Below, in pieces: positions 1-46,993 of a DNA stretch of 47,800 nt (positions are counted from its first letter, which is position 1; each line of letters begins with the position of its first letter). Source of the stretch: a virus. Taxonomy: Duplodnaviria; Heunggongvirae; Uroviricota; Caudoviricetes. Location of the stretch: positions 1 to 47,800 of IMG/VR virus record IMGVR_UViG_2563366820_000002. One strand, given 5' to 3'. Both the position numbers and the translations under genes were made by a program. The notes under the pieces are model-generated. The model was given only the letters and a program-made list of their open reading frames with translations, made no database searches and was not told the DNA's origin.

Positions 1-1284
1 TTACTTCTTCGCCTCTGCAACCACTTTGCTACCCACGCCGCGGTTATTGTATTCCCACATGCGGTTGTAGTTAGTGTCATTCAGATTACGCTGTACTTCG
101 TCGTTATCATCAACGTTGCCAGTATTACCCGCAAACGGACGATTGGAAATCACCGCATCGGCCCACGGTTTAGCCGTGTTAAAACCTTCGTTGATGGCGC
201 TATCACGGATCACCACCTGACCGTTGGTATTGGCATCAACATCCAGCGAGCGGCCCAGTTGCGCCACGCCATCACCGGAAGCATTGAAACGGCTGTTTAC
301 GGCGAGGAAACCGTAGTAAATGTTGGACAGCGTAGCCGGTGCAAACACATACGCTTCTTGCTGAGTACGTGAGTTCACCACGCGGAATTCGGTATTATCG
401 AACACCACTGCGCCGCGACCAGAAACGATATCCACATCCCCTTCAATGTAACTGTTGGTCACCAGAGTACGCGGCTGACGGTTGGTTTCTAGACGGTTTT
501 GCACACCACTGTTGGTGACAAAGAAGGTATTCTGACGACCGAGAATGTTGACGTTATTGATCTGCACTTTGTCGCCATCAGTACGCAGTGCCACCGCCGG
601 ATGGTTACCCGCATCTACGCTATCGCCCAGCGTGTTTTCGATGGTCAGGTTTTGCAGTTGCAGGCCATTGTTTTGTGACCAGAAGACCGCAGAGCAGAGA
701 ACGCCGATACTGTCGCTGCGTTTGCTCTGGCAGCTATCGTACATATACCACGCTGGTTTACCTGGCATATATTTGCCGCGCGGGTTGACGTCGTGACGCC
801 AGTCGGCAGGGCTCATGCCCCCATCAAGGGAAAGCCCAATCTTCACATCAATCGGTTTTTCACCTGTACCGTACAGAGTAATTCCACCCGGAGCGGCAGG
901 GACATACACCGTTCCCTGATACTCACCAGGCATCACGGCAATATACTGGCGCTTGTTGGTACGCTTGATAATTGCCGCATCTACCGCCGCCTGAATCGTG
1001 GTATGCGTTACACCTTGAGTACCCGCCGGGCCGACAACAAAGTCAGGTTGCGCAGGCAGGGTAATCGGGGAAGGATTCCACGCTGCAGCACCTGGCGTCA
1101 GGGATGCAAAATAGTGTTGAGCATCGAAATTCTGCGCTTCTTTTGCCGACAGAATCGGGCGAGAAGAGGTACCAGGCGCGGTTTGATCAGAAGGACGTTG
1201 ATCGGGCGGTGTTGAGCTACAGGCGGTCAGCGTCACGCCAAAAGCCAATGCCAGCGCCAGACGGGAAACTGAAAATGTGTTCAC
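1..1284 (-). CDS. ybhC: Host outer-membrane lipoprotein YbhC (pectinesterase-fold putative thioesterase)
   Basis: 427-aa ORF with lipoprotein signal (LTAC) matching my recollection of E. coli YbhC, which flanks lambda attB. Confidence 0.85.
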   Translation of the reverse strand: MNTFSVSRLALALAFGVTLTACSSTPPDQRPSDQTAPGTSSRPILSAKEAQNFDAQHYFASLTPGAAAWNPSPITLPAQPDFVVGPAGTQGVTHTTIQAAVDAAIIKRTNKRQYIAVMPGEYQGTVYVPAAPGGITLYGTGEKPIDVKIGLSLDGGMSPADWRHDVNPRGKYMPGKPAWYMYDSCQSKRSDSIGVLCSAVFWSQNNGLQLQNLTIENTLGDSVDAGNHPAVALRTDGDKVQINNVNILGRQNTFFVTNSGVQNRLETNRQPRTLVTNSYIEGDVDIVSGRGAVVFDNTEFRVVNSRTQQEAYVFAPATLSNIYYGFLAVNSRFNASGDGVAQLGRSLDVDANTNGQVVIRDSAINEGFNTAKPWADAVISNRPFAGNTGNVDDNDEVQRNLNDTNYNRMWEYNNRGVGSKVVAEAKK

Positions 1285-1319
1285 AGGTTGCTCCGGGCTA
1301 TGAAATAGAAAAATGAATC

Positions 1320-1425
1320 CGTTGAAGCCTGCTTTTTTATACTAAGTTGGCATTATAAAAAAGCATTGCTTATCAATTTGTTGCAACGAACAGGTCACTA
1401 TCAGTCAAAATAAAATCATTATTTG
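1320..1425. other. attL (bacterial arm, 15-bp core 1331-1345, phage P' arm with Int arm-type sites)
   Basis: tgaagcctGCTTTTTTATACTAAgttggcattataaaaaagcattgcttatcaatttgttgcaacgaacaggtcactatcagtcaaaataaaatcatt matches the lambda attP core and P' arm as I recall them. Confidence 0.9.
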
Positions 1426-2489
1426 ATTTCAATTTTGTCCCACTCCCTGCCTCTGTCATCACGATACTGTGATGCCATGGTGTCCGACTTATGCCCGAGA
1501 AGATGTTGAGCAAACTTATCGCTTATCTGCTTCTCATAGAGTCTTGCAGACAAACTGCGCAACTCGTGAAAGGTAGGCGGATCCCCTTCGAAGGAAAGAC
1601 CTGATGCTTTTCGTGCGCGCATAAAATACCTTGATACTGTGCCGGATGAAAGCGGTTCACGACGAGTAGATGCAATTATGGTTTCTCCGCCAAGAATCTC
1701 TTTGCATTTATCAAGTGTTTCCTTCATTGATATCCCGAGGGCATCAACATGCAATGCTGTTGGGATGGCAATTTTTACGCCTGTTTTGCTTTGCTCGACA
1801 TAAAGATATCCATCTACGATATCAGACCACTTCATTTCGCATAAATCACCAACTCGCTGCCCGGTAACAACAGCCAGTTCCATTGCAAGTCTTAGCCAAC
1901 ATGGTGATGATTCTGCTGCTTGATAAATTTTCAGGTATTCGTCAGCCGTAAGTCTTGATCTCCTTACCTCTGATTTTGCTGCGCGAGTGGCAGCGACAGG
2001 GTTTGTTGTTATATGGCCTTCAGCTATTGCCTCTCGGAATGCATCGCTCAGTGTTGATCTGATTAACTTGGCTGACGCCGCCTTGCCCTCGTCTATGTAT
2101 CCATTGAGCATTGCCGCAATTTCTTTTGTGGTGATGTCTTCAAGTGGAGCATCAGGCAGACCCCTCCTTATTGCTTTAATTTTGCTCATGTAATTTATGA
2201 GTGTCTTCTGCTTGATTCCTCTGCTGGCCAGGATTTTTTCGTAGCGATCAAGCCATGAATGTAACGTAACGGAATTATCACTGTTGATTCTCGCTGTCAG
2301 AGGCTTGTGTTTGTGTCCTGAAAATAACTCAATGTTGGCCTGTATAGCTTCAGTGATTGCTATCCTCCTGTCTCGGCCTAATCCAAACTCTTTACCCGTC
2401 CTTGGGTCCCTGTAGCAGTAATATCCATTGTTTCTTATATAAAGGTTAGGGGGTAAATCCCGGCGCTCATGACTTCGCCTTCTTCCCAT
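1419..2489 (-). CDS. int: Integrase (tyrosine recombinase), lambda Int
   Basis: 356-aa translation matches lambda Int as I recall it (MGRRRSHERRDLPPNLYIRNNGYYCYRDPRTGKEFGLG...); ATG at 2489. Confidence 0.95.
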   Translation of the reverse strand: MGRRRSHERRDLPPNLYIRNNGYYCYRDPRTGKEFGLGRDRRIAITEAIQANIELFSGHKHKPLTARINSDNSVTLHSWLDRYEKILASRGIKQKTLINYMSKIKAIRRGLPDAPLEDITTKEIAAMLNGYIDEGKAASAKLIRSTLSDAFREAIAEGHITTNPVAATRAAKSEVRRSRLTADEYLKIYQAAESSPCWLRLAMELAVVTGQRVGDLCEMKWSDIVDGYLYVEQSKTGVKIAIPTALHVDALGISMKETLDKCKEILGGETIIASTRREPLSSGTVSRYFMRARKASGLSFEGDPPTFHELRSLSARLYEKQISDKFAQHLLGHKSDTMASQYRDDRGREWDKIEIK

Positions 2490-11665: not shown

Positions 11666-12382
11666 TCAAACCAGCCTTAGTTTTGTCTCAATTGCAACGC
11701 CTATAATCTTGCAGTTTCCATTGATTGGCACGAGAGGCCATGCAGGATTAAGTCCCTTGAGGTATTTATTCCCGCCGTCGATTATCAGCTTCTTGAATGT
11801 TGCTTCGTTAGAGTCAGAAAGTTTTGCTATGACCAAGCTGCCGTTGATCGCCTCCCTTCCGGTATCGAAAAGAACGAATGTTCCCTCTGGAATGCTTAAC
11901 CCAACCGGTGCCGTCATTGAATCACCTTCCACTTTAAGCCAGAACGCATTACCTTGAATATGCGCGTCAGACTCAAGCCAAACATCTATGTCTTTAATGG
12001 TGTATGGTTCGCATGCTTCACACCACGAGCCAGCCTGGATACTGCTTAACACCGGATACCTCTTTCCTGCTCTGTATTCCCCTGCATACCTTACGTTGGC
12101 ATCGCTCTTAAGGCTTTCTGCCTGTTCTGCAACCTTGGCAGCAATTGACTGGCTAAAATCAGCAATTGAGACTTGCAACAATCGTGCAAAACCAGATGCA
12201 ACCTCAACGTTTAGCGCGTTTCTGCCATTAAGATAATGCCCTACCGCTCCTTGGGTGATACCCAGTTCATCAGCAATTGAATATTGGGTTATTCCCAATT
12301 CTTTCTTTTTTGACTCATACAAAGCCTTAAGCCGCTTAGCGTCTTCGAGCTGTTCTGTCGTCAGTGATTTTTTATTTTCCAT
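11666..12382 (-). CDS. cI: CI repressor (HTH plus S24 LexA-like autopeptidase domain)
   Basis: 238 aa; N-terminus LTTEQLEDAKRLKALYESKKKELGITQ parallels lambda CI; C-terminal domain has GDSM and FKKL catalytic motifs; divergent from cro. Confidence 0.9.
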   Translation of the reverse strand: MENKKSLTTEQLEDAKRLKALYESKKKELGITQYSIADELGITQGAVGHYLNGRNALNVEVASGFARLLQVSIADFSQSIAAKVAEQAESLKSDANVRYAGEYRAGKRYPVLSSIQAGSWCEACEPYTIKDIDVWLESDAHIQGNAFWLKVEGDSMTAPVGLSIPEGTFVLFDTGREAINGSLVIAKLSDSNEATFKKLIIDGGNKYLKGLNPAWPLVPINGNCKIIGVAIETKLRLV

Positions 12383-24316: not shown

Positions 24317-25851
24317 TGTTTAATTTTTTGAGAAAGAAAAAATCTGAGCCTCAGAAAGAAGAGGCGAAACAGCCAATGTCTCTGGCGAATGTTCTTGCGA
24401 TTATTAACGAACAGGAGCGAATTAAAAATGAAGGCGAGGCATTGCGTAGAATTGAGAGATACGTACCCCCGCCAGGCGTTATTCCTGAACATATTGGGGA
24501 GTCAGCTCTGGCGATGGACTCCACGCCGTACAGTTACCTTAACTCAGCAAACATCACCGCATATGGCTACGGTGGATTTCCTGGCTACCCATATCTGTCT
24601 CAACTTGCTCAGTTGCCGGAGTATCGCAAGATTACTGGCACGATAGCAGAAGAGATGACGCGAAAATGGATTGAGCTGAAGCATGTAGGTAAAGACGATG
24701 GTGACGACAAGGCCGATAAAATTCGCCAGCTTGACGAAGCATTAAAGCGTTTCAGAGTGCGAGAGAAGTTTCGCGAGGCAGCGGAACATGACGGTTACTT
24801 CGGGCGCGGACAGATTTATATCGACGTGAAGACGCCAAGCGGTAACTCAGCCTGGCTGGTACCCGACGAACTGGATAAGAAGCTCTATATCAGCCCGCGC
24901 AAGATTACCAAAGGAAGCCTGAATGGTTTCCGCGTTATCGAGGCCATGTGGACTTACCCGGGCGTGTATAACGCTGACAATCCTCTAAGCCCTGACTTCT
25001 TCAATCCATCTGAATGGTATGTCATGGGGCGCACGGTTCACGCCAGTCGCATGTTGACAATGATTTCTCGCCAGGTGCCAGACATTCTCAAAGCGGCGTA
25101 CAACTTCGGCGGCTTGTCGCTGAGTCAGATGGCAGAGCCATACGTGCAGAACTGGTTGAGAACACGTGACAGCGTTAGCGATCTGGTTCATTCGTTTGTG
25201 GTCTATGGGCTGAAGACGAACATGCAGAATGCCTTGTCTGGAATTGCAGACCCAAACCTGTTTATGCGTGCCGAGCTATTCAATAAGGTTCGCGACAATC
25301 GCGGAATGTTCCTTATTGATAAGGATGGAGAAGAATTCTTCCAGTTTGTGACAAGTCTGTCCGGAGTTGATGCTCTTCAGGCGCAAGCGCAGGAACAAAT
25401 GGCATCGGTATCAAGCATTCCTCTGGTTAAGCTCCTTGGCATCACTCCTAACGGGCTAAACGCTTCATCTGATGGCGAAATCCGCGTCTTCTATGACTCA
25501 ATACACGCCATGCAGGAGAATCTGTTCAGGGTGCCGCTGAAAACAGTGCTGGATGTTATCCAGTTGAATGAATTTGGCGAGATTGACCCTGACATTGATT
25601 TTGAATTCCTGCCGCTGTACGAGCTTACAGAAGCAGAGAAAGCCGAGATCATGAAACATCAGTCTGAGGCTGATAAGAACTATGCCGAAGCTGGCGTGTT
25701 CGACCTTGATGCAATAAGAAGCATGCGCCAGTCGGATAAGGCCAGCCCATACCACATGATGGAATCTGAATATGACGAAGAAGAGCACGAAAACGAGTCC
25801 GTCGAAGAAGGATTCGAAGACCCGGAAAACCCTTCGTCCAGTCAGAGCTAA
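24316..25851 (+). CDS. Portal protein
   Basis: 511-aa ORF following the terminase; GTG start at 24316 overlapping the terminase stop (alternative ATG at 24376). Confidence 0.75.
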
Positions 25852-31185: not shown

Positions 31186-31697
31186 ATGATTTCACTGTCG
31201 ATAATATTATCGATGTACTTGCTGGCTACATAGAACCTATCGCTGGTAAATGCCTGCAGGCTCAGGCTAACCGTGTACCAATGCCCAAAGATCAGTTCTG
31301 TATCCTGACCCCTTTGCGATTCACCAGACTATCCACTACGAGAGAGCTTAAACAAGATACCGGCTCTCCGGACACAAGCACCATGGGATATACGGAAGTT
31401 CGCCAGGCTGATATTCAGGTAGATATCTATGGTCAGGGGGCAGGGGATAGAGCTATTGCACTGGAAACAACATTCACCAGTGGATATGGCTACGACATCA
31501 TCAAGGCTATTGATGCACGGCTTGCGCCGCTTTACTCATCTCCTGCCATTCAGGCGCCGATGATCAACGCCGAGAGTCAGTGGCAGGAGCGTTACACGTT
31601 AACTCTTTCCCTGCAAGCACACATCACCGTGTCGTTCCAGCAGGACTATTTCGACAAAGCAGAAATTTCAACTGAACAGGTGGATAACCGCCCATGA
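31182..31697 (+). CDS. Virion structural protein, 171 aa
   Basis: ATG at 31182 overlapping the upstream stop (ATGA); track start 31149 is GTG. Confidence 0.5.
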   Translation: MNDFTVDNIIDVLAGYIEPIAGKCLQAQANRVPMPKDQFCILTPLRFTRLSTTRELKQDTGSPDTSTMGYTEVRQADIQVDIYGQGAGDRAIALETTFTSGYGYDIIKAIDARLAPLYSSPAIQAPMINAESQWQERYTLTLSLQAHITVSFQQDYFDKAEISTEQVDNRP

Positions 31698-33184
31698 GCA
31701 CAATCCCTTTATCTGTAGATTTTAATATCACGCCCAATGTCGTTACGCCTGCCGGTTCTGCGGTTGATGCTAACGGCCTGATGTTGACCGATAACGAGCT
31801 TATCCCGGTTGGCGCGGTACAATCTTATTACTCCTCATCTGATGTATCAGCTTTAATGGGGAGTGAATCGAAAGAATTCCTCGCCGCACAACAGTATTTT
31901 AACGGATACGAAAACTCATCCGTTATTCCTGGTGAACTGCTGATGTATCGTATTGTTACTTCACCAGTGGCTGGGTATCTTCTGTCCGGCAACCTGAAAG
32001 GTGTTACCCTGGCAACACTGAAAGCGATTCCAGCAGGAACAATCACCCTTTCCATTGACGGTGAGTCGACTACCAGCACATCAATTGATTTGTCCACAGC
32101 CACAAGTTTTAGTGATATTGCGTCCAAGTTGCAGGTTGGAATTGGTGCAAGCAAGGTGGTGGTTGAATGGTTGCCAATCGCTAACCGATTCATCATTCGC
32201 TCTGCCACTACTGGCGCAGAGAGTGAAGTGTCTTATGCTTCTGCTGGCGCTCTGGCTACCGGGTTGTTACTGACGCAGGATTCCGCAGCGATTGTATCAC
32301 CGGGTTCTGATGCGGTAACGCTGACAGACACGATGAACAACATCATCAACGTCAACCAGAACTGGATCCTGTTTAACTCGCTGGTCGAACTGACCGATGA
32401 CCAGAAAACAGAATTGTGCGCATGGGCAAGCAGCAGTAAAAACCGGTTTGGATATGTTGTTCACGACACCACTTCAGCAGGAACGGTAGCCAATAATGCA
32501 AATTGCTTTGTGCAGAAAGTGGTTGTGGCAAATGGCTACGAGAACATTTTTCCGGTGTACGGAACATACCTGTATAGCGTTACAGCACTGGCATATGCTG
32601 CATCCGTGGATTTTGCACGCACCAATGGGCGTATCTCGTTCAAGTTCCGTGGATTTTCAGGGTTAGCACCCAACGTAAGCGATCTGGCGACCGCTCAGGC
32701 ACTGAAGTCAAACGGTTACAACTTCTACGGCTCATACAGCCTGAACAAAACAATGGCGCAGTACGCATCTGATGGTGCCATTACTGGCAAGTTTGTATGG
32801 CTGGACAGTTTTATTAATCAGGCATGGATTAATGCCAATCTGGTTAGTGCTTTTGCCAACCTGTTCACCAATAATCAGTCTTACCCGTTCAATGAGACAG
32901 GATACGGCGCAGTTTCTGCTGCTGTTATTGATGTTGCTGAACAGGCTCTCAATTTCGGGGCTATTCAGCGTGGCGTGAAACTTGATAATGCGCAAACCAG
33001 AATTGTGAATAACACAGTTGGAAAAGATATCTCATCGACGCTGTATTCACAGGGCTGGTTCCTGTACATCCCGACACAGTCAGGCTCTGCACGCATTGAG
33101 CGCGACCTGAAAGGTGTCATTTTTTATTATGTCGATGGGCAACTTATTCAGTCCATCACAATGTCCTCAACCGCGATTTTATAA
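31694..33184 (+). CDS. Tail sheath-like protein
   Basis: 496 aa, first large gene of the tail module and immediately upstream of a tube-sized gene. Confidence 0.55.
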   Translation: MSTIPLSVDFNITPNVVTPAGSAVDANGLMLTDNELIPVGAVQSYYSSSDVSALMGSESKEFLAAQQYFNGYENSSVIPGELLMYRIVTSPVAGYLLSGNLKGVTLATLKAIPAGTITLSIDGESTTSTSIDLSTATSFSDIASKLQVGIGASKVVVEWLPIANRFIIRSATTGAESEVSYASAGALATGLLLTQDSAAIVSPGSDAVTLTDTMNNIINVNQNWILFNSLVELTDDQKTELCAWASSSKNRFGYVVHDTTSAGTVANNANCFVQKVVVANGYENIFPVYGTYLYSVTALAYAASVDFARTNGRISFKFRGFSGLAPNVSDLATAQALKSNGYNFYGSYSLNKTMAQYASDGAITGKFVWLDSFINQAWINANLVSAFANLFTNNQSYPFNETGYGAVSAAVIDVAEQALNFGAIQRGVKLDNAQTRIVNNTVGKDISSTLYSQGWFLYIPTQSGSARIERDLKGVIFYYVDGQLIQSITMSSTAIL

Positions 33185-33195
33185 GGGAATAAATC

Positions 33196-33630
33196 ATGCC
33201 TATCGATATTACCTCGGCAAACAGTAAGCTGCGAATCGTCGTACCCGCTTACTACCCTGGCGGTTTTGATGTTGACGACTACGCAGCTGATAACATGTTT
33301 GAAACTGGTGCGTTACAGAACAAAGAAGACATGATGTCAGCGGACGGTAAATACCATGCTGGTTTTATCTTTAACCCGACAGAGTTCACCATCAACCTGA
33401 TGCCCACATCCAATGCTGGCTCGCTGATTGATGACTGGTATGCAGCGGAGAGAACCGCAATTTCAGCGTTTCAGTGTAATGCGGTGCTTACAGTTCCGGC
33501 TCTCGGCGCGAAGTGGAATTTTGTGAACGGGGTTCTTTATACATGGACTCCAACCCCTCCGGGTCGGCGCGTACTGCAACCACGCCCGGCAGTATTTCAC
33601 TTTGAGTCTGTAACACGGAGCACTATCTGA
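33196..33630 (+). CDS. Tail tube-like protein
   Basis: 144 aa following the sheath-like gene. Confidence 0.5.
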   Translation: MPIDITSANSKLRIVVPAYYPGGFDVDDYAADNMFETGALQNKEDMMSADGKYHAGFIFNPTEFTINLMPTSNAGSLIDDWYAAERTAISAFQCNAVLTVPALGAKWNFVNGVLYTWTPTPPGRRVLQPRPAVFHFESVTRSTI

Positions 33631-34037
33631 TGGCACGTAAAGAAATCCCCTTTATCGTGGAAGACGATAATCGCGACAATGGGAAGGAGTTCATTATCAC
33701 AGAGATGTCGGCATGGGATGCCGACGAACTGGCACAGGATTTATTCCGCTCCATGGGGGAATCGGGATTCTCTGGCATTCCTGCTGATGTGATTGCCATG
33801 GGGTGTGCTGGCCTTGCCACCCTTGGTCTGAATGTTCTTTCTGCCGCATCGCCGGAAGTCGCCAGAAAACTTCGTGATCGCCTGATGTCAACTGTGCAAA
33901 TTGTGATTACACACGAAGGCAGCAGACAGGTGCGAACCGTGAAGCCTGTCGACTTTGAAGAGGTATCAACCATTCGTCAGGTAATGGATAAGGTATTTAA
34001 AGTTAATTTTGATTTTTTAACGATCGCCGGAGAGTGA
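33630..34037 (+). CDS. Tail assembly chaperone (zero-frame product)
   Basis: Acidic 135-aa protein immediately upstream of the tape measure gene; slippery heptamer near its 3' end. Confidence 0.7.
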   Translation: MARKEIPFIVEDDNRDNGKEFIITEMSAWDADELAQDLFRSMGESGFSGIPADVIAMGCAGLATLGLNVLSAASPEVARKLRDRLMSTVQIVITHEGSRQVRTVKPVDFEEVSTIRQVMDKVFKVNFDFLTIAGE

Positions 34038-34252
34038 AGTACCCGTTCATGGAAGAGGAGACTCTTCCGGCAAAACTCGTTCGCCCCGTAAACGTCACAC
34101 CATCAATGAACGCCATTATCTGTTCAGGAAAAGCCACTTATACCGATTTGCAGGAACGGTTATCTGTTCGTGATATGTATAACCTTCTGGAAATTATCTC
34201 GGTGGAATCATTTAACAAGCGGGTCTGGAATAAACATCAGGAGCAGCGATGA
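34013..34252 (+). other. Programmed -1 frameshift site and extension ORF of the tail assembly chaperone
   Basis: Zero-frame gaT TTT TTA at 34013-34019 is an X_XXY_YYZ slippery site; -1 frame stays open to 34252, overlapping the tape measure start. Confidence 0.65.
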
Positions 34253-36024
34253 TTATCAATGAGTTGGCCTACAAGGTCACAATTAAGGCCGATGAATTCC
34301 TGAATGGAAAACGGAAAGTAAAGCAGGAAGCACAAGACCTTAAAAACGAAATAGAGAGATCTTCATCTGCGATAGAAAGGTCAACAACCTCCTCAATGTC
34401 CAAAACGGCTAAGGAGACCGACAAAGCTGCTGTTGCAATGAAAGGGTTGACTGCTTCATTTAATGGATTTTTGGGGCTTTCGACACGCTTTGTGGCTGTT
34501 GGCGGTGTGTTGACAGCCGTAGCCATTGGCATTCACCGTGCATTTGAAAGTACTTCGGAGTCAATTGTAAGAGCCAGTAATATGGGGAGAATGCTTGGAA
34601 CAAGCGCCAGTAACGTTCTTGGTACTCAGTATGGATTCTCTCGAATTGGTCAGAACGGCGGCGCGTTCCTTGGGGCTCAGATGAGCGCCAGGATGGCGCT
34701 TTCCAATATAGAAGACCCAACAATTTTCGGCGGACTTACACCGGAGGCTCAGAATTTACTAACAACTGGAGCGAGAACAGGCATTGATATTAGTAAGCTT
34801 GGAGGTAAATCTGAAGATGCTCTGGCGGAATTTCAGAAATATGGGAAGAACCATAACGAGAAACAGTTAATGCAAGTGCTTTCTGCTTTTGGTTATGACC
34901 CTAATCTTGCCGGGGATATTAAAAGCGGAAAAGCTGTGCAGATGGTATCTGAGGAAGAGAAACGATGGCAGATGACCAAAGAGCAGGAAGAAGCACAGCG
35001 TAATATTCTTGCTACGACTAAAGCCCTTGACTCGCAATTTGCTCAGGTTAAACAAGAACTAATGGCTACATTTGGCCCTGAAGTGCTTAAAGCAGAACAG
35101 GAGTTTTTAGAGTGGCTGAAAAACAACAAGGGTGACATTGTTGGGTTCTTCAGGAACCTGAGTACAGGTATTGATGGTTTTGTTAAAGCCGTTGGTGGCG
35201 CTGGAAACGCATTGGGCATTCTTGCTGCCATGGCTCTTCTTAGCGGCAAGGGGTTAGGAAGCAAGCTGGGCTTAATCGGTACGATTGGTGTTTTGGGGCA
35301 GATGGTACAAGACCAGTATAAAGATGTTCCTGATGCACAAAGGCCTTGGTTTTTTCAGCAGCACTGGTTCGAAAGATTATTCAATATTGAATATGAAGAT
35401 CCAAATCAGGATATACCAACAAATCCATCAGGAAAAACAAGAGCGGATAGAAACTTCAACCCATTAAATCTTAGAACTAAAGGTAATGCAGGTAGGGATT
35501 CTGGAGGGTTTGCGAAGTACACTGATGATGAGTCAGGATGGGAAGCAGCAAGAAGGCAATTATCTCTGTATTACACAAGAGATAAACTTAACACTATAAA
35601 CGGTATTATTACGAAATGGGCTCCACCTTCAGAAAACGATACCGCCTCATACATAAAGCAAGTTTCTAAGGCAATGGGGGTTGATGCAAATGAAAAACTC
35701 GACCTTTCAGACCCGTCTGTTATGGCTAAATTAAGTTCCTACATGGCACGACATGAAGGTTATTCAAATTGGAAGCGGGGTCTTGATTATGGTAACCCAA
35801 CGAAAAATAGCAATGCCGCGTACTACCAAACCCAGCAAAGATTGGCTAATGGATCTGCAAACCAATCCTATGCCCAGAGCGTTGTTAACAATTACAACAG
35901 CCAGCACATAGGAGAGGTAAAGGTAATTGCCAAAACGGATCAATCCTCAAAACTAACAGAAGGATTTAAGGAGTTGAATCGCAGATCATCAGTAAACCAG
36001 GCATTTTCAAGTGGTGTTAGATAG
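34249..36024 (+). CDS. Tail tape measure protein
   Basis: 591 aa, Gly/Ala-rich with a hydrophobic segment, follows the frameshifted chaperone pair. Confidence 0.7.
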   Translation: MIINELAYKVTIKADEFLNGKRKVKQEAQDLKNEIERSSSAIERSTTSSMSKTAKETDKAAVAMKGLTASFNGFLGLSTRFVAVGGVLTAVAIGIHRAFESTSESIVRASNMGRMLGTSASNVLGTQYGFSRIGQNGGAFLGAQMSARMALSNIEDPTIFGGLTPEAQNLLTTGARTGIDISKLGGKSEDALAEFQKYGKNHNEKQLMQVLSAFGYDPNLAGDIKSGKAVQMVSEEEKRWQMTKEQEEAQRNILATTKALDSQFAQVKQELMATFGPEVLKAEQEFLEWLKNNKGDIVGFFRNLSTGIDGFVKAVGGAGNALGILAAMALLSGKGLGSKLGLIGTIGVLGQMVQDQYKDVPDAQRPWFFQQHWFERLFNIEYEDPNQDIPTNPSGKTRADRNFNPLNLRTKGNAGRDSGGFAKYTDDESGWEAARRQLSLYYTRDKLNTINGIITKWAPPSENDTASYIKQVSKAMGVDANEKLDLSDPSVMAKLSSYMARHEGYSNWKRGLDYGNPTKNSNAAYYQTQQRLANGSANQSYAQSVVNNYNSQHIGEVKVIAKTDQSSKLTEGFKELNRRSSVNQAFSSGVR

Positions 36025-36483
36025 TTAAAAGTTGCGATGGGATGGCGAAGCAATGGCAAAACCTCCAAGTGTTACCATTTCATCTCTAAAAGCCTTATCT
36101 TTAGCTGCTTTTTGTGCACCTGACATGATGTTCTTGTGAAAATAGTCTCTGAACTTGGCCTCTTCCTCGGATACATCTGGAGTAAAACGACCATAGTCAG
36201 ATTCAATCTTATCTAAAATTATGCTTGCAGTATTGGGCTTGAAGATTGAGTATGACAAAAAAACTCGACAATCATTCGCTTGTTCCATGACGAATTTTTT
36301 CATGTCATCAGGGTTAAATCTTCTTGATTCAGAAGCGTATTTTTGAGCCAACCCAATGCAAGCAATCTCAGCTTCCTTGGTGACATGATCTGGTGGAATA
36401 AGTCCTTCTTCTCCATGCGCCGAAGCTAAGAATAGCCAAGAGGAGATAATAGGAATGGCATAACGAATATATGATTTCTTCAT
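36025..36483 (-). CDS. Secreted/periplasmic protein with signal peptide, 152 aa
   Basis: N-terminal MKKSYIRYAIPIISSWLFLASAHG signal-like sequence; co-oriented with the upstream repressor gene. Confidence 0.65.
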   Translation of the reverse strand: MKKSYIRYAIPIISSWLFLASAHGEEGLIPPDHVTKEAEIACIGLAQKYASESRRFNPDDMKKFVMEQANDCRVFLSYSIFKPNTASIILDKIESDYGRFTPDVSEEEAKFRDYFHKNIMSGAQKAAKDKAFRDEMVTLGGFAIASPSHRNF

Positions 36484-36619
36484 ATTATAATCCTTGTGCT
36501 GTTTTTATGATTCTACCCATTAAATGAAGAAAAAACACGCAACACTCAGTTTTGTCCAGGATAGCATGTGACTCAAGGGAGCGCAGCCTACCTGGGTTGG
36601 TTAAGTGATTTCGTGCTTA

Positions 36620-37480
36620 TTACTTGTCTGGTGAGTGTTTATAACGGGCCTGTGAAAGGCTGTAGTTAGCTAACTTCTCAAGGCGCTCAGCAATTTCATC
36701 TAGTCGCTTAAGACGTTCGTCAAAGGGTGTATTCTTGTCAAATTTTGTATTTGACCAAAAATCTTGGCTAACCTTGTGTGCTTCCTCAACCAGTTTCTCT
36801 ACTTCGCTATGCGGCATTGGAGAGATAAGTTTTTCCCTCTTGATTCGAAACTGAGAATGAATAGCCACGCCAACAACCTCGATAAAATCAGGTTGGAACA
36901 TGGGGTATAAAGGGTTAAGTGACTTAAGGTAGATTTGGCGCTGATCCAGTATAAACTGCTTAAATACAGCCTCAGAATTATCATTTAGCACACACATCAC
37001 AAAGTCACCAGAAACAGCCTTTAGCGATGAATCGAAAGTTACGATTGTTCCAGGGGGAAAGCTAATCCCATCACCGGAAGACATGGATTCACCTTGTATT
37101 TCAACGGCAAAACAGTATTCATTGGCTTCAGGAGGGGCTGGAATAAAGTCCTTTATAGCAGCAGTCTTTAGTAAATCATCTAGCGATTCAAATCTTGCCT
37201 GTACGTGTGTTAGCACAGGAATCTCGCGCACAGTAACAGTTCTCTTGACACTGCTAACGTCAGGGCCATCTCCTTTCCCTTGCGTAAGCCATTCAGTGGT
37301 AGTTCCCAATGCAGCTGCAAGGTTTTGAAGTGCCTTTTCTCTTGGTTTAGCTTCCCCACCCTCGTAAGCAGCGATCTGTCTGGGTACCACGCCTACTTTC
37401 TTGGCAAGCTCGGATTGAGTCAAACCGATGGAGTTGCGCGCTATGGCAACTCGTTTAGAAAAAGAATCATCAAAACTCAT
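36620..37480 (-). CDS. LexA/CI-type repressor: HTH-XRE plus S24 autopeptidase domain with a ~70-aa C-terminal extension
   Basis: N-terminal IGLTQSELAKKVGVVPRQIAAYEGG helix-turn-helix; GESM serine motif and FKQF lysine motif; 286 aa. Confidence 0.8.
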   Translation of the reverse strand: MSFDDSFSKRVAIARNSIGLTQSELAKKVGVVPRQIAAYEGGEAKPREKALQNLAAALGTTTEWLTQGKGDGPDVSSVKRTVTVREIPVLTHVQARFESLDDLLKTAAIKDFIPAPPEANEYCFAVEIQGESMSSGDGISFPPGTIVTFDSSLKAVSGDFVMCVLNDNSEAVFKQFILDQRQIYLKSLNPLYPMFQPDFIEVVGVAIHSQFRIKREKLISPMPHSEVEKLVEEAHKVSQDFWSNTKFDKNTPFDERLKRLDEIAERLEKLANYSLSQARYKHSPDK

Positions 37481-37577
37481 ATTTGCACCTTAAAAAATCA
37501 TTGACTCAATATATGTCTGGTACTAACCTAATGTTGAAGATTGAGTAATTGAATAACAAAACTACATGAGGTGAATA

Positions 37578-37751
37578 ATGGAACAGAAGAAAAAAGATAT
37601 CAAGCCTATCTCCTACCGCCCAAGTGCTGAGGTGCGTGAGTTTTTGGAAGGCAACGCAGCTAAAAGCTACCGCTCAATTCAGGGAATGCTTGATTTCTTT
37701 ATGGCAAGAGTGATGGAGATGGAGAGGAAAGGTGAAATTGTCATTCATTAA
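37578..37751 (+). CDS. Small regulator, 57 aa, possible ribbon-helix-helix (Arc/Mnt-like)
   Basis: ATG with GAGGTG RBS, divergent from the repressor; an RHH fold is an inference from the pattern. Confidence 0.5.
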   Translation: MEQKKKDIKPISYRPSAEVREFLEGNAAKSYRSIQGMLDFFMARVMEMERKGEIVIH

Positions 37752-37823
37752 AAACGTTGAAGCCCAACGGTGGCTAGACCGTCTGGGCTTCGGTATCAAC
37801 AAATCGGCTTAGGAAATATTGAC

Positions 37824-38702
37824 ATGAAAAGTATAGCAAAGATACAAAACGATTTCACCATCTTCAAATTCGGCGACAGTGAAATCCGCGTCATCAACAA
37901 GTGCGGTGAGCCGTGGTTTGTAGCTAAAGATGTTTGTGATGCTTTAGCTTTGACTAACTCACGCAAGGCGCTTACTGCACTTGATGACGATGAAAAGGGA
38001 GTAACTTTAAGTTACACCCTTGGTGGTGAGCAGAATTTAAGCATTGTGAGCGAATCAGGTATGTATACATTGGTTTTGCGCTGCCGCGATGCCGTCAATA
38101 AAGGTTCAGTCCCGCACAAATTCCGCAAGTGGGTAACAGCAGAAGTTCTGCCTTCAATTCGCAAATATGGCGAGTATGTGAAAGGCAAGAAAACCACAGT
38201 TGAGGAAAGAACACCGCTACGCGATGCAGTAAACATGCTGGTAGGAAAGAAAGGACTTCGCTATGACGATGCATACAATATGGTTCATCAGCGTTTTGGT
38301 ATTGACAGCATTGATGAACTTTCAATTGAACAAATCCCGCTGGCCGTAGAGTACATCCACAGGGTGGTGCTTGAAGGTGAGTTCATTGGCAAGCAAGAGA
38401 AGAAAGCAAACGAGCTTTCTGCAAAAGAAGCAAACAGCCTTGTATGGTTATGGGATTATGCCAACCGCTCACAGGCATTATTCCGCGAACTGTATCCGGC
38501 ATTAAAACAAATTCAATCGAACTATTCCGGCAGATGCTACGACTACGGCCATGAGTTCTCGTATGTTATCGGAACGGCGAGAGACGTTTTAATCAACCAC
38601 ACACGAGATGTTGATATCAATGAGCCAGACGGACCAACAAATCTTTCTGCATGGATAAGGCTTAAGAATAAAGAATTGCCGCCTTCTGTTCATCTGTATT
38701 AA
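37824..38702 (+). CDS. Bro-N domain antirepressor-like protein
   Basis: N-terminus [43 protein letters not shown] typical of Bro-N; ATG at 37824 with AGGAAA RBS. Confidence 0.75.
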
Positions 38703-38718
38703 TGACGCATCTGGTGGT

Positions 38719-38748
38719 GAAAAAAAACCGCCAGTGTGCTGCTGGCGG
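38719..38748 (-). terminator. Hairpin with a flanking A-run (terminator geometry on the minus strand)
   Basis: CCGCCAG-TGTGCTG-CTGGCGG preceded on the plus strand by AAAAAAAA. Confidence 0.4.
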
Positions 38749-38786
38749 CCTATGTCACACCCTTACTACCACATAAGGAATGCCTA

Positions 38787-39515
38787 ATGACTTTTAAGAA
38801 TGTAGCAAACATCGGATCCGTTGTCACGGATAAAACCATTGATAGCCAGTACCTGTTAGAGATGGTCAATCATGCTCGTAGACAGTGCGGGGAAAAAGAA
38901 GTTCGAAATAACGACTTTATTGCACGCATTAAGGATGAACTTGAAGGTGAGCACTACGAAATTTTCGTAGTTCAAAAATCAAACAAGACAACTTCTGAAA
39001 AAGTTGTTATGTCAATTAAGCAAGCCCTTCGAGTGGCTGCTCGTGAATCTAAAGCTGTTCGCCGCTCACTTGTAGACCAACTTGAAAGTATGCAAGAAGC
39101 GCACATTAAAAGCGGTAAATCGTCGAGTGGACTTGTTGAGTATCGCCAGGCGCGAACATTGAAAATGACGGTTGAAGCTGTTACCAATCTGTTCGATTTG
39201 ATGCCAAATCTTGCGCCGGAAGCAAAGCAGACTGCGGCCGCAAGCATAATCAACCCGATCGTTGGTTTTAATGCAATACCCCTTCCGGCAATAGAAGAGC
39301 ATTACTACTCAGCAGGGGAGGTTGCAGAGCAGCTTGGAGTAACGGCCAACAAGATTGGTCGCATTGCTAACGCAAACAACCTCAAAACTGAGCAGTACGG
39401 GAAGTTCTTCCTGGATAAATCGGCGCATTCCAGCAAACAGGTGGAAGCATTCCGCTACAACTCAAAAGGAGTTGAAGTATTGAGAAATCTAGTTAATGTT
39501 TCTACCGCAGCCTAA
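38787..39515 (+). CDS. Antirepressor-like protein (Rha/Ant-type N-terminus, KilAC-type C-terminus)
   Basis: 242 aa from ATG 38787 with AAGGAA RBS; C-terminal YYSAGEVAEQLGVTANKIGRIANANNL resembles antirepressor C-terminal domains. Confidence 0.6.
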   Translation: MTFKNVANIGSVVTDKTIDSQYLLEMVNHARRQCGEKEVRNNDFIARIKDELEGEHYEIFVVQKSNKTTSEKVVMSIKQALRVAARESKAVRRSLVDQLESMQEAHIKSGKSSSGLVEYRQARTLKMTVEAVTNLFDLMPNLAPEAKQTAAASIINPIVGFNAIPLPAIEEHYYSAGEVAEQLGVTANKIGRIANANNLKTEQYGKFFLDKSAHSSKQVEAFRYNSKGVEVLRNLVNVSTAA

Positions 39516-45973: not shown

Positions 45974-46993
45974 ATGCAACATTCATTAGCAATGAAAAAC
46001 TGCGCAGGTAGTCATGAAATGAGAAAAATAAGTAATGTAATTTTTGATAGAGATCACACCATTGAACTAAAAGGCGTTGCTATTCTCCTTGTCATGCTTG
46101 GGCATGTAAATGTAATCCCGCACGCCGGGGCATATGGTGTTGCTCTATTCCTTATGCTGTCAGGCTTTGGCCTTGTGCAATCTTACATTAAATCAGGGTT
46201 GGATTCTTTTTTTTCAAAAAGGCTATCAAAAGTACTTGTTCCATACGCTATTATAACCATTGTTTGGATTATTGCTTTTGGACATCCAGCAATTACAAAT
46301 GATGACTTTTATCATTTAGCGATTACCATACTAGGCATTGATTTGAATGCCACTATAGATCCTAGTATGTGGTATATATCTTTTATAATAATATGGTATC
46401 TGGCTTTTTTTCTAATTTTTAGCGCTAATATCTCTATTAATATTAAAATAGCCTTCCTTTTCCTTTTTTCTGTATTGCTTTACAAAAACGCAGATATATT
46501 CCCTCCTCCAGCAGGTGCCGGACTATACGTTGCTGCATTTCCACTAGGTTCACTAATTGGAGTGGTGTATGAAAAAGTCAAAGGATATGCAATAGATAAA
46601 TGGATATTACTTTTGTTTGTCATAGTTTCTTTGGTGTCCTTAATTTTATCCCTTTATTTTTATAAAGGGATTGATGTTAGTTTTTTTGACTATGCAGCAA
46701 CAAATATAGCAAGCGCATTTCTTATAATTGGAATTACATCGATTCTTAGAGTTGCAAATATAAACATAACACCATTGAAATTTGTTGGCATACTATCTTA
46801 CGAGATGTATCTTATAGAATTCATGTTTTTGATGAAAGCATACCATTTATTATCGTTTATAAGTTCAGATGGGATAAAATCCGTCTTGTTTGTTGTAATT
46901 GTTTGTATTTTTGCATACGTATATAAATACGTACTTTCAATAGTTTTTAAAGCGCTCAGGAAGGCATTACCAAACTCAAAAATATATACTTAG
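45974..46993 (+). CDS. Acyltransferase-3 family integral membrane protein (putative surface-polysaccharide O-acetylase)
   Basis: Multi-pass hydrophobic protein with N-terminal ...RDHTIELKGVAILLVMLGH... motif; start among ATGs at 45974/45992/46019 uncertain. Confidence 0.75.
   Translation: MQHSLAMKNCAGSHEMRKISNVIFDRDHTIELKGVAILLVMLGHVNVIPHAGAYGVALFLMLSGFGLVQSYIKSGLDSFFSKRLSKVLVPYAIITIVWIIAFGHPAITNDDFYHLAITILGIDLNATIDPSMWYISFIIIWYLAFFLIFSANISINIKIAFLFLFSVLLYKNADIFPPPAGAGLYVAAFPLGSLIGVVYEKVKGYAIDKWILLLFVIVSLVSLILSLYFYKGIDVSFFDYAATNIASAFLIIGITSILRVANINITPLKFVGILSYEMYLIEFMFLMKAYHLLSFISSDGIKSVLFVVIVCIFAYVYKYVLSIVFKALRKALPNSKIYT

What the first reader, a model, noticed from the sequence alone, without database searches (positions are those of the whole stretch)
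34013..34252. Slippery heptamer predicting a -1 frameshift in the tail assembly chaperone
The chaperone ORF contains gaT TTT TTA in the zero frame 18 nt before its stop. A -1 slip there continues for another 72 codons to overlap the tape measure start, the arrangement conserved in tailed phages (as lambda G/GT). It is seen directly in the sequence rather than assumed from annotation.
Basis: partly seen in the sequence, partly recalled or inferred. Interest (0 to 1): 0.35.

Follow-up and report, generated by a model that had tools for sequence, protein, structure and literature searches.

The report
Tail chaperone −1 frameshift site
A slippery T TTT TTA near the end of a prophage tail-assembly chaperone gene very probably lets a minority of ribosomes slip back one base and make a longer chaperone, the well-known lambda G/GT and P2 E/E' arrangement, here in a phage group where no record examined annotates it.

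Summary
The chaperone ORF (33630-34037) carries T TTT TTA in the zero frame at 34013-34019. The -1 frame opens at exactly 34013 and runs 77 codons (not 72) to a TGA at 34250-52, which overlaps the tape-measure ATG at 34249.

In one genome this is only mildly unlikely by chance (about 0.025). The comparative evidence is what decides it:
- 78 of 79 related viral contigs carry an in-frame T TTT TTN, 76 of them exactly 15 nt before the stop.
- Distant relatives use G GGT TTT or T TTT TTC at the same codon. The two exceptions keep a shift-prone tetramer.
- The -1 extension is conserved as protein (phrog_3976; entropy by codon position 1.13/0.86/1.58 bits) but has no conserved start codon or Shine-Dalgarno.

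The anatomy matches lambda G/GT and P2 E/E+E', read here from their records. The modelled N-domain resembles annotated tail assembly chaperones.

No conserved downstream RNA stimulator was found, and efficiency was not measured. No sequence record examined annotates the shift; the extension is called a separate hypothetical protein.

This is an ordinary, unannotated new member of a well-known kind. Interest is low.

The parts
33630..34037 (+). Short form of the tail assembly chaperone (TAC-N, 135 aa), zero frame
   Evidence: phrog_1932 'tail assembly chaperone' E 4.6e-52. Pfam Phage_TAC_15 20.9 bits, just under the 22-bit cut-off. Lies between tube and tape measure genes. Modelled N-domain resembles annotated TACs.
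34013..34019 (+). Slippery heptamer T TTT TTA (X XXY YYZ in the zero frame); Phe129-Leu130
   Evidence: The Phe codon is one of 9 invariant columns in the 10-lineage chaperone alignment. T TTT TTN at the homologous place in 78 of 79 viral contigs.
34013..34037 (+). The 25-nt zone where the zero and -1 frames are both open; the only place where a -1 shift can give the long product
   Evidence: the -1 frame opens at 34013 after TGA 34010-12; the zero frame stops at 34035-37.
34019..34252 (+). -1 frame extension, 77 codons plus TGA (NDRRRVKYPF...NKHQEQR). Predicted long form is 130 + 77 = 207 aa: a flexible linker, then a three-helix C-domain
   Evidence: phrog_3976 E 4e-15. Conserved peptide alignment. 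Entropy by codon position 1.13/0.86/1.58 bits in the -1 frame. AF2 model.
34049..34252 (+). The piece that PGAP annotates as a separate 67-aa hypothetical protein (WP_001311526.1 in relatives); judged to be a fragment of the extension
   Evidence: The ATG at 34049 has no Shine-Dalgarno at working distance, and this start is not conserved in relatives.
34249..36024 (+). Tape measure protein with a lytic C-terminal region (591 aa). Its ATG overlaps the extension's stop (ATGA) and has its own AGGAG at 34239-43
   Evidence: phrog_873 / phrog_2013 / phrog_2276; sequence.
33196..33630 (+). Tail tube protein (context; the presumed partner of the extension domain)
   Evidence: Pfam E217_Gp32 5.5e-17; phrog_1964.
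31694..33184 (+). Tail sheath (context; shows this is a contractile tail)
   Evidence: DUF3383 4.3e-107; phrog_205 tail sheath.

Best explanation
[quoted passage not shown] Most ribosomes translate 33630-34037 and stop, giving the 135-aa chaperone. A minority, with tRNA-Phe on UUU in the P site and tRNA-Leu on UUA in the A site, slip back one base on U UUU UUA (34013-19), re-pair on UUU UUU, and continue with AAC at 34019. They make a 207-aa protein: the same N-domain, then a flexible linker, then a small helical C-domain encoded in the -1 frame, ending on the tape measure start codon. By analogy with lambda gpG/gpGT, the N-domain coats the tape measure protein and the rare C-domain recruits the tube protein, so the slip sets a fixed many-to-one ratio of the two forms. 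Shown here: the sequence anatomy, its conservation, the coding character of the extension without a start of its own, and the chaperone-like fold. Inferred: that the slip occurs, that it is ribosomal, its efficiency, and the role of the C-domain.
Against: There is no direct evidence of expression: no proteomics or reporter data for this clade turned up in the papers searched. No significant or conserved downstream stem-loop or pseudoknot was found (z = -0.24 for 34013-34110; structures in relatives are variable). In E. coli, U_UUU_UUA is not among the motifs listed as efficient, the U_UUA tetramer is weak, and motifs without a stimulator give low absolute frequencies (PMC4066793), so efficiency could be very low. 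In this particular prophage the zero-frame stop overlaps a GTG (GTGA at 34034-37), which could allow some termination-reinitiation. The single in-frame fusion (P0029) may simply be a homopolymer sequencing error.
Confidence: 0.82

Rival explanations
1. The downstream ORF is a separate small gene, translated from its own start (ATG 34049, as PGAP annotates) or by termination-reinitiation at the GTGA overlap (GTG 34034 / TGA 34035-37). The heptamer is incidental.
For: Every record examined annotates it that way. In this window a GTG overlaps the chaperone stop codon and an ATG lies 12 nt further on.
Against: Neither start is conserved. GTG at codon 5 occurs in 8 of 71 distinct relatives (plus a TTG in one more), and ATG at codon 10 or 11 in 31. 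14 have their first ATG at codon 52 of about 77, and 5 have no ATG at all. An SD-like motif at working distance is almost never present. Here GGAG ends 1 nt before the GTG, and there is none before the ATG. By contrast the tape measure ATG has AGGAG 5 nt upstream. The peptide upstream of these starts is conserved. This reading does not explain the frozen T-run 15 nt before the stop in 76 of 79 contigs.
Confidence: 0.05
2. The long form is made by transcriptional slippage. RNA polymerase adds one U on the T6 run, which puts the extension in frame on a fraction of the mRNAs; the ribosome does not slip.
For: The site is a homopolymer run. Inserting one T gives exactly the fusion frame, as the T9 metagenomic relative shows. 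U7 and A7 are under-represented in E. coli genes in all frames, possibly because of slippage or indels (PMC4066793). Non-frameshift routes to the long TAC have been proposed for T4-like phages (Vladimirov et al. 2022, as cited in PMC12846349 and PMC10885494; the paper itself is not held).
Against: Productive bacterial transcriptional slippage is described on runs of 9 A or T (PMC5009743), whereas here the run is 6. Relatives with G GGT TTT have only 4-5 T yet keep a perfect X XXY YYZ heptamer in phase (phiE131, vB_AsaM-56). The L050 exception has A_AAG and no run at all. Longer runs are not favoured (T7 in only 3 of 78).
Confidence: 0.08
3. Chance: the heptamer and the open -1 frame are coincidental and the extension is not expressed.
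For: The single-genome probability is only about 0.025, and one comparable chance event exists in the same window (25827). No stimulatory RNA structure was found.
Against: Conservation of the site, the frame, the length and the peptide across 71 distinct sequences and 438 representative clusters. The extension has its own PHROG family.
Confidence: 0.02

Closest known systems
Phage P2 E / E+E' (Peduovirus; contractile tail)
   Same: The chaperone gene lies directly after the tube gene and before the tape measure gene. The site is a U6-type heptamer (T TTT TTG) 18 nt before the stop, with a short -1 extension (57 codons) whose stop overlaps the tape measure start. The RefSeq record annotates it as a -1 translational frameshift.
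   Different: No detectable sequence homology (hhalign probability 0.3%). P2 E is 91 aa against 135 aa here. The Z base is G rather than A. The tail module here is of the E217/PB1 type (DUF3383 sheath, E217_Gp32 tube), not the P2 type.
Phage lambda gpG / gpGT
   Same: A -1 slip on a canonical heptamer 15 nt before the stop of the chaperone gene, with the long form ending on the tape measure start. The reported ratio is about 30:1 and neither form is in the virion (PMC5009743; anatomy). No downstream stimulator was found here.
   Different: The heptamer is G GGA AAG (tRNA-Lys slip) rather than U6A. The extension is 144 codons against 77. Lambda has a non-contractile tail. No sequence homology (hhalign probability 0.4%).
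Predicted TAC frameshift of Pakpunavirus / Vandenendeviridae and Andersonviridae (phage Adele; Moogle)
   Same: Myoviruses in which the piece downstream of TAC-N is routinely annotated as a hypothetical protein. A conserved poly-T motif lies near the 3' end of TAC-N and the -1 frame is uninterrupted in all genomes; the argument is the same kind of comparative one (PMC12846349). Moogle's 'tape measure chaperone' appears among the fold matches.
   Different: A different clade and a different motif (GTTTTT there, T TTT TTN or G GGT TTT here). That work does not cover the Gofduovirus / Obolenskvirus / Popoffvirus-like group to which this prophage belongs.
HK97 tail assembly chaperone (PDB 2ob9) and B. 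subtilis YqbN (PDB 3klu)

Membership tests
G/GT-type tail assembly chaperone with programmed -1 frameshift (Xu, Hendrix & Duda 2004; lambda G/GT, P2 E/E+E') | The gene lies between the major tail or tube gene and the tape measure gene, in the same transcription unit | tested here: met
   Tube 33196-33630, TAC 33630-34037, TMP 34249-36024. No plus-strand promoter-like or terminator-like site in 33000-36700.
G/GT-type tail assembly chaperone with programmed -1 frameshift (Xu, Hendrix & Duda 2004; lambda G/GT, P2 E/E+E') | A second ORF in the -1 frame overlaps the 3' end of the first and runs up to the tape measure gene | tested here: met
   -1 frame open 34013-34252; its stop overlaps ATG 34249. 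The same holds in all relatives examined.
G/GT-type tail assembly chaperone with programmed -1 frameshift (Xu, Hendrix & Duda 2004; lambda G/GT, P2 E/E+E') | A canonical slippery sequence (X XXY YYZ) in zero-frame phase inside the overlap | tested here: met
   T TTT TTA at 34013-19. 78 of 79 related contigs. Alternative canonical heptamers in distant relatives.
G/GT-type tail assembly chaperone with programmed -1 frameshift (Xu, Hendrix & Duda 2004; lambda G/GT, P2 E/E+E') | The downstream ORF has no conserved translation start of its own but is conserved as protein | tested here: met
   start and SD survey, codon-position entropy; peptide alignment; phrog_3976.
G/GT-type tail assembly chaperone with programmed -1 frameshift (Xu, Hendrix & Duda 2004; lambda G/GT, P2 E/E+E') | Two proteins sharing an N-terminus are actually made, in a fixed ratio with the long form in the minority | not testable with these tools
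   Needs a reporter assay, western blot or mass spectrometry. No such data for this clade in the papers searched.
G/GT-type tail assembly chaperone with programmed -1 frameshift (Xu, Hendrix & Duda 2004; lambda G/GT, P2 E/E+E') | Both forms are required for tail assembly and absent from virions; the N part binds the tape measure and the C part binds the tube protein | not testable with these tools
   Genetic and biochemical properties; inferred here only by analogy (PMC5009743).
Tail assembly chaperone fold / sequence families (PHROG 1932; Pfam PF21822 Phage_TAC_15; PDB 2ob9) | Significant match to a curated TAC sequence family | tested here: inconclusive
   phrog_1932 E 4.6e-52 over the full length. 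Pfam Phage_TAC_15 gives 20.9 bits, below the 22-bit gathering cut-off. 4 of 10 lineage representatives match at E<=0.01. Homologue P0029 passes with 25.5 bits. No PDB sequence relative.
Tail assembly chaperone fold / sequence families (PHROG 1932; Pfam PF21822 Phage_TAC_15; PDB 2ob9) | Structural resemblance to solved or annotated TACs | tested here: met
   [not shown]

The most novel reading that the evidence does not exclude
The U6N site in this clade is not a plain lambda-like slip. It would work without any RNA stimulator, through a mixed mechanism: P-site slippage of tRNA-Phe while the A site waits on the rarely used UUA codon, plus a contribution from RNA-polymerase slippage. The long:short ratio would then respond to host physiology (tRNA-Leu supply, growth rate). 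The T9 in-frame relative (P0029) would be a real lineage that has fixed the long form. That would mean the ratio rule held to be essential in lambda is relaxed in these contractile-tail phages.
Probability: 0.06. Interest if true: 0.5.

Novelty: new member of a known kind. Interest (0 to 1): 0.18.

Why it matters
The main value is for annotation. In the E. coli RefSeq chromosomes examined, and in the GenBank and RefSeq phage records examined for the Gofduovirus, Popoffvirus, Obolenskvirus and related groups, the extension is called a separate hypothetical protein of 44 to 70 aa, or is not annotated at all (Klebsiella ST15-VIM1phi2.1, Acetobacter phiAO1, Burkholderia phiE131). It should instead be a joined CDS with a -1 ribosomal slippage. 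The result adds one more large clade (438 clusters at 50% identity) to the evidence that the two-form chaperone is near-universal in long-tailed phages. It also provides a clean natural series of heptamer variants (U6A, U6C, U6G, U6U, G3U4, and the tetramers A_AAG and U_UUU) at one homologous site, with no evident stimulator, which could be used to compare slip efficiencies. It does not change any concept.

Tried and rejected
(1) A downstream stimulatory RNA. Folding 34013-34110 gave z = -0.24 against shuffles. The 60 nt after the site in ten lineages share no hairpin at a fixed distance, with z from -3.1 to +2.0. The local CCGGAGAG...CUCUUCCGG pairing in the window is not conserved, so I rejected it as a defining part.

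(2) Close phage relatives by DNA. There is no megablast match in the phage collection; relatives were found only at protein level.

(3) Sequence homology to lambda G and P2 E. None was detected.

(4) PDB sequence search with the chaperone profile. Nothing at E<=1.

(5) Single-sequence AlphaFold. The model was useless (pLDDT 38.6) and was replaced by the run with an alignment.

(6) Natural in-frame fusions as independent proof. Only one was found (P0029), and it sits on a T9 homopolymer in a single metagenome contig, so it may be a sequencing error. There are none among the top 150 representatives. The apparent junction-spanning hits (P0144, P0259 and others) are low-complexity zero-frame tails, and P0152 is the -1 frame called from an upstream ATG.

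(7) -2 slippage, which occurs on U6A in eukaryotic systems (PMC3458567). The +1/-2 frame is open for 50 codons here but only 2-57 codons in relatives and is not conserved. I rejected it as a functional product.

(8) Vladimirov et al. 2022 on T4-like TACs could not be read.

Full report
**1. The observation**

The window between 31.7 and 36.0 kb encodes, on the plus strand:
- a contractile-tail sheath (31694-33184; DUF3383, E 4e-107; phrog_205);
- a tail tube protein (33196-33630; Pfam E217_Gp32; phrog_1964);
- a 135-aa ORF (33630-34037) that matches phrog_1932 'tail assembly chaperone' at E 4.6e-52 and Pfam Phage_TAC_15 just below its cut-off (20.9 against 22 bits);
- a 591-aa tape measure protein with a lytic C-terminal part (34249-36024).

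The chaperone ORF ends ...AAT TTT GAT TTT TTA ACG ATC GCC GGA GAG TGA. The heptamer T TTT TTA is at 34013-34019 in X XXY YYZ phase, with 15 nt between it and the stop codon. The -1 frame opens at exactly 34013, because a -1 frame TGA lies at 34010-12. It stays open for 77 codons after the slip, to TGA 34250-52, which overlaps the tape measure ATG at 34249 (ATGA).

The only slip is '72 codons', which is the length of the GTG-started ORF 34034-34252, not of the extension (77 codons). The predicted long form is 130 + 77 = 207 aa.

**2. Is it more than chance?**

In the 58 long ORFs of the window, in-frame X XXY YYZ heptamers occur 48 times in 13,198 codons, or 0.0036 per codon. The productive zone is 25 nt, about seven positions, so the chance of a heptamer there is roughly 0.025. 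Of the 48 heptamers, this one alone has a -1 extension that reaches the next gene. One look-alike exists (A AAC CCT at 25827, 15 nt before the portal stop, 50-codon extension), so events of this type do arise by chance. On its own the window is suggestive, not conclusive.

**3. Where the window comes from**

The window is a complete temperate prophage. From left to right it carries:
- a host pectinesterase-family gene, then a lambda-type integrase at 1419-2489;
- an S24/HTH repressor at 11666-12382 and O-like and DnaC-like replication genes;
- terminase, portal, a MuF-like protein, then the tail genes.

Its tube-to-TMP segment is 99% identical in only 4 of 5,426 complete E. coli genomes and 93% identical in a fifth. 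Another 15 genomes share only part of it. No phage record is close at DNA level.

At protein level the chaperone finds 98 phage records: Edwardsiella Edno5 and GF-2 (Gofduovirus, 68-69% identity), Vibrio IKEMa6-1 (64%), and at about 30-37% Burkholderia, Pseudomonas, Aeromonas (Popoffvirus), Klebsiella, Acetobacter and Acinetobacter (Obolenskvirus and phiAC-1) myoviruses.

No record examined annotates a frameshift. The downstream piece is a 'hypothetical protein' of 44-70 aa, or is left unannotated.

**4. Comparative test of the site**

I read the homologous region in ten lineages. A canonical heptamer in phase sits at the same codon in nine of them:

| Site | Lineages |
|---|---|
| T TTT TTA | E. 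coli, Edno5 and GF-2, Vibrio, Acetobacter phiAO1, Acinetobacter phiAC-1 and AB3P2 |
| T TTT TTC | Pseudomonas Amjad_SA |
| G GGT TTT | Burkholderia phiE131, Aeromonas vB_AsaM-56 |

The Phe codon inside the heptamer is one of only nine invariant columns of the chaperone alignment.

In a wider sweep of viral contigs, 79 loci had a complete chaperone ORF:
- 78 carry T TTT TTN in phase (A 38, C 28, G 9, T 3). 76 of these are exactly 15 nt before the stop; the other two are 18 and 30 nt before it.
- The -1 frame is open 61-74 codons beyond the chaperone stop in all 79.
- The +1 frame is open only 2-57 codons.

Synonymous positions are frozen at the site. Elsewhere in these genes Phe is TTC 155 times and TTT 130 times, but at the site it is always TTT. 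The preceding codon always ends in T whether it encodes Asp, Gly, Asn or Ser. The invariance of the run in that table follows from how the loci were selected; 78 of 79 is the unselected figure.

The two relatives without a heptamer keep a shift-prone tetramer in the same short zone: A_AAG in L050 and U_UUU in Klebsiella ST15-VIM1phi2.1. Sharma et al. found A_AAG >> U_UUC > U_UUU to be the most shift-prone tetramers in E. coli (PMC4066793).

**5. Is the extension translated, and from where?**

The extension matches its own PHROG (phrog_3976, E 4e-15). Among 71 distinct extension sequences:
- Mean entropy by -1 frame codon position is 1.13, 0.86 and 1.58 bits. This is the signature of a protein-coding frame.
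- There is no conserved start. The first ATG/GTG/TTG lies anywhere from codon 5 to codon 52. Acetobacter phiAO1 has none in 89 codons, and Burkholderia phiE131 has none before codon 45 of 75. 14 sequences have their first ATG at codon 52.
- A Shine-Dalgarno-like motif at working distance is almost never present.

The peptide is nevertheless conserved from its first codons: NDRRRVKYPF, INRSRVKFPF, STRSRVRFPY, RNWRRVDWPL and so on.

In the five zero-frame codons between the heptamer and the stop, conservation runs second > first > third position when read in the -1 frame. That is the order expected of coding sequence. Read in the zero frame it runs first > third > second, which is not. This is modest support that the overlap itself is read in the -1 frame.

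In the window, the candidate starts are GTG 34034 (GGAG only 1 nt upstream) and ATG 34049 (no SD). By contrast the tape measure ATG has AGGAG 5 nt upstream. No plus-strand promoter-like or terminator-like site interrupts the tube-TAC-TMP stretch.

**6. Database view of the two parts**

Searching with the predicted 207-aa product gave 423 hits in the 90%-identity collection. Of the 120 listed, all but one are chaperone-only proteins of 128-136 aa.

The exception is P0029 (210 aa, 52% identity, 100% coverage), from one metagenome contig with the same tail gene order. Its DNA reads AGT TTT TTT TTC AAT AGG, a T9 run that puts both parts in one frame, with junction FSFFFNRRRV. One T fewer would restore the two-frame arrangement. 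It is therefore either a genuine fused variant or a homopolymer error. Either way it shows what the frameshift product looks like, and its N-part passes the Pfam TAC_15 cut-off (25.5 bits).

The exhaustive search of cluster representatives found 438 clusters. Among the best 150:
- matches to the chaperone part end at query residues 129-135, which is at the slip site;
- matches to the extension are separate ORFs of 36-91 aa;
- none is a fusion.

**7. Mechanism**

The best-supported mechanism is tandem -1 ribosomal slippage on U UUU UUA: tRNA-Phe in the P site and tRNA-Leu in the A site re-pair on UUU UUU.

I found no downstream stimulator. Folding of 34013-34110 is no better than shuffled sequence (z = -0.24), and relatives share no hairpin at a fixed distance. 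In E. coli reporters, motifs without a stimulator give low frequencies, U-type heptamers ending in C or U are the better ones, and the U_UUA tetramer is weak (PMC4066793). A low ratio, as in lambda (about 30:1, PMC5009743), is thus plausible, but it was not measured here.

Transcriptional slippage is the main mechanistic rival, because the site is a homopolymer and inserting one U gives the same product. Three points count against it:
- Productive bacterial cases use runs of about 9 (PMC5009743).
- The G GGT TTT relatives have only 4-5 T but keep a perfect phased heptamer.
- T7 is rare, at 3 of 78.

**8. Structure**

A single-sequence model was useless (pLDDT 38.6). With a 59-sequence alignment the 207-aa product modelled at pLDDT 82:
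- an alpha/beta N-domain (1-134, mostly above 90) whose last helix carries the slip site;
- a low-confidence linker (about 135-157);
- a three-helix C-domain (158-206), encoded wholly in the -1 frame.

**9. Comparison with the known cases**

I read lambda and P2 from their records:

| | Heptamer | nt before the stop | -1 extension (codons) | Overlap with the tape measure start |
|---|---|---|---|---|
| lambda G | G GGA AAG | 15 | 144 | 8 nt |
| P2 E | T TTT TTG (annotated '-1 translational frameshift') | 18 | 57 | 8 nt |
| window | T TTT TTA | 15 | 77 | 4 nt |

P2 E/E+E' is the closest functional analogue: a contractile tail, a U6 heptamer and a short extension. There is no sequence homology to either protein; the review likewise notes low sequence similarity among these ORFs in different phages (PMC5009743).

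A 2025 paper makes the same comparative argument for a different myovirus group, Pakpunavirus and Andersonviridae, with a GTTTTT motif (PMC12846349). The papers held on this clade (the Obolenskvirus phages Brutus and Scipio, and Edno5) never use the word frameshift.

**10. Verdict**

This is a G/GT-type programmed -1 frameshift in a tail assembly chaperone. It is strongly supported by conservation but not demonstrated by experiment, and no record examined annotates it in this clade. It is a new member of a well-known kind and of low surprise. Its practical value is in correcting annotation and in offering a natural series of heptamer variants at one site.

Noticed in passing
window 36025-39515: A variable island sits between the tape measure gene and the baseplate genes. 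It holds a minus-strand 152-aa protein with a signal-peptide-like N-terminus (36025-36483), a second S24/HTH repressor-like gene (36620-37480, minus strand; the primary repressor is at 11666-12382), and two antirepressor genes (37770-38702 with Bro-N and P22_AR_C domains; 38736-39515, phrog_1726). The same slot holds a P63C-domain protein in E. coli SC422 (L001), and two Arc-family regulators plus a partial antirepressor gene in IGC_RcoliRes_1.1 (L094), which resembles the P22 immI region. It looks like an exchangeable secondary-immunity module inside the tail operon.
   Followed up: partly
window ~34322 (73 nt into the tape measure gene); loci H7-H15, L094: At least nine of the listed E. coli genomes (H7-H15) keep tube, chaperone and extension at 99% identity, but the similarity stops 73 nt into the tape measure gene. 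Their tape measure is a different SLT-domain protein (1818 nt in L094). So a recombination joint lies just inside the TMP N-terminus, even though the chaperone is supposed to bind the TMP.
   Followed up: partly
L013 4001-4633 (ENA metagenome contig, protein P0029): This is the only single-ORF version of chaperone plus extension that I found. It is created by a T9 run at the slip site (AGT TTT TTT TTC AAT). It is either a real fused variant or a homopolymer error; the data cannot tell which.
   Followed up: partly
L005 3114-3605 (Burkholderia phage phiE131): An HNH homing endonuclease gene is inserted between the end of the -1 extension (3111) and the tape measure start (3642). This breaks the usual stop/start overlap.
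   Followed up: no
L050 ~1854 and L008 ~2953: The two relatives without a canonical heptamer have only the tetramers A_AAG (12 nt before the stop) and U_UUU (18 nt before the stop) in the overlap. They are possible natural examples of tetramer-only TAC frameshifting.
   Followed up: partly
[not shown]
   Followed up: no
window 25827-25833: An in-frame A AAC CCT lies 15 nt before the portal gene stop, with a 50-codon -1 extension. The motif class is a poor one (A_AA.C_CC.A was one of three motifs below threshold even with a pseudoknot in Sharma et al.). I treated it as a chance control and did not check it in relatives. The portal ORF (to 25851) also overlaps the mechanically listed start of the MuF-like ORF (25772) by 80 nt, so that start is probably further downstream.
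   Followed up: no
window 1-2489 and 45974-46993: The prophage sits next to a host pectinesterase-family gene and has a lambda-type integrase with an arm-binding domain. An acyltransferase-family gene (Acyl_transf_3) lies near the right end and may be an O-antigen-modifying moron.
   Followed up: no
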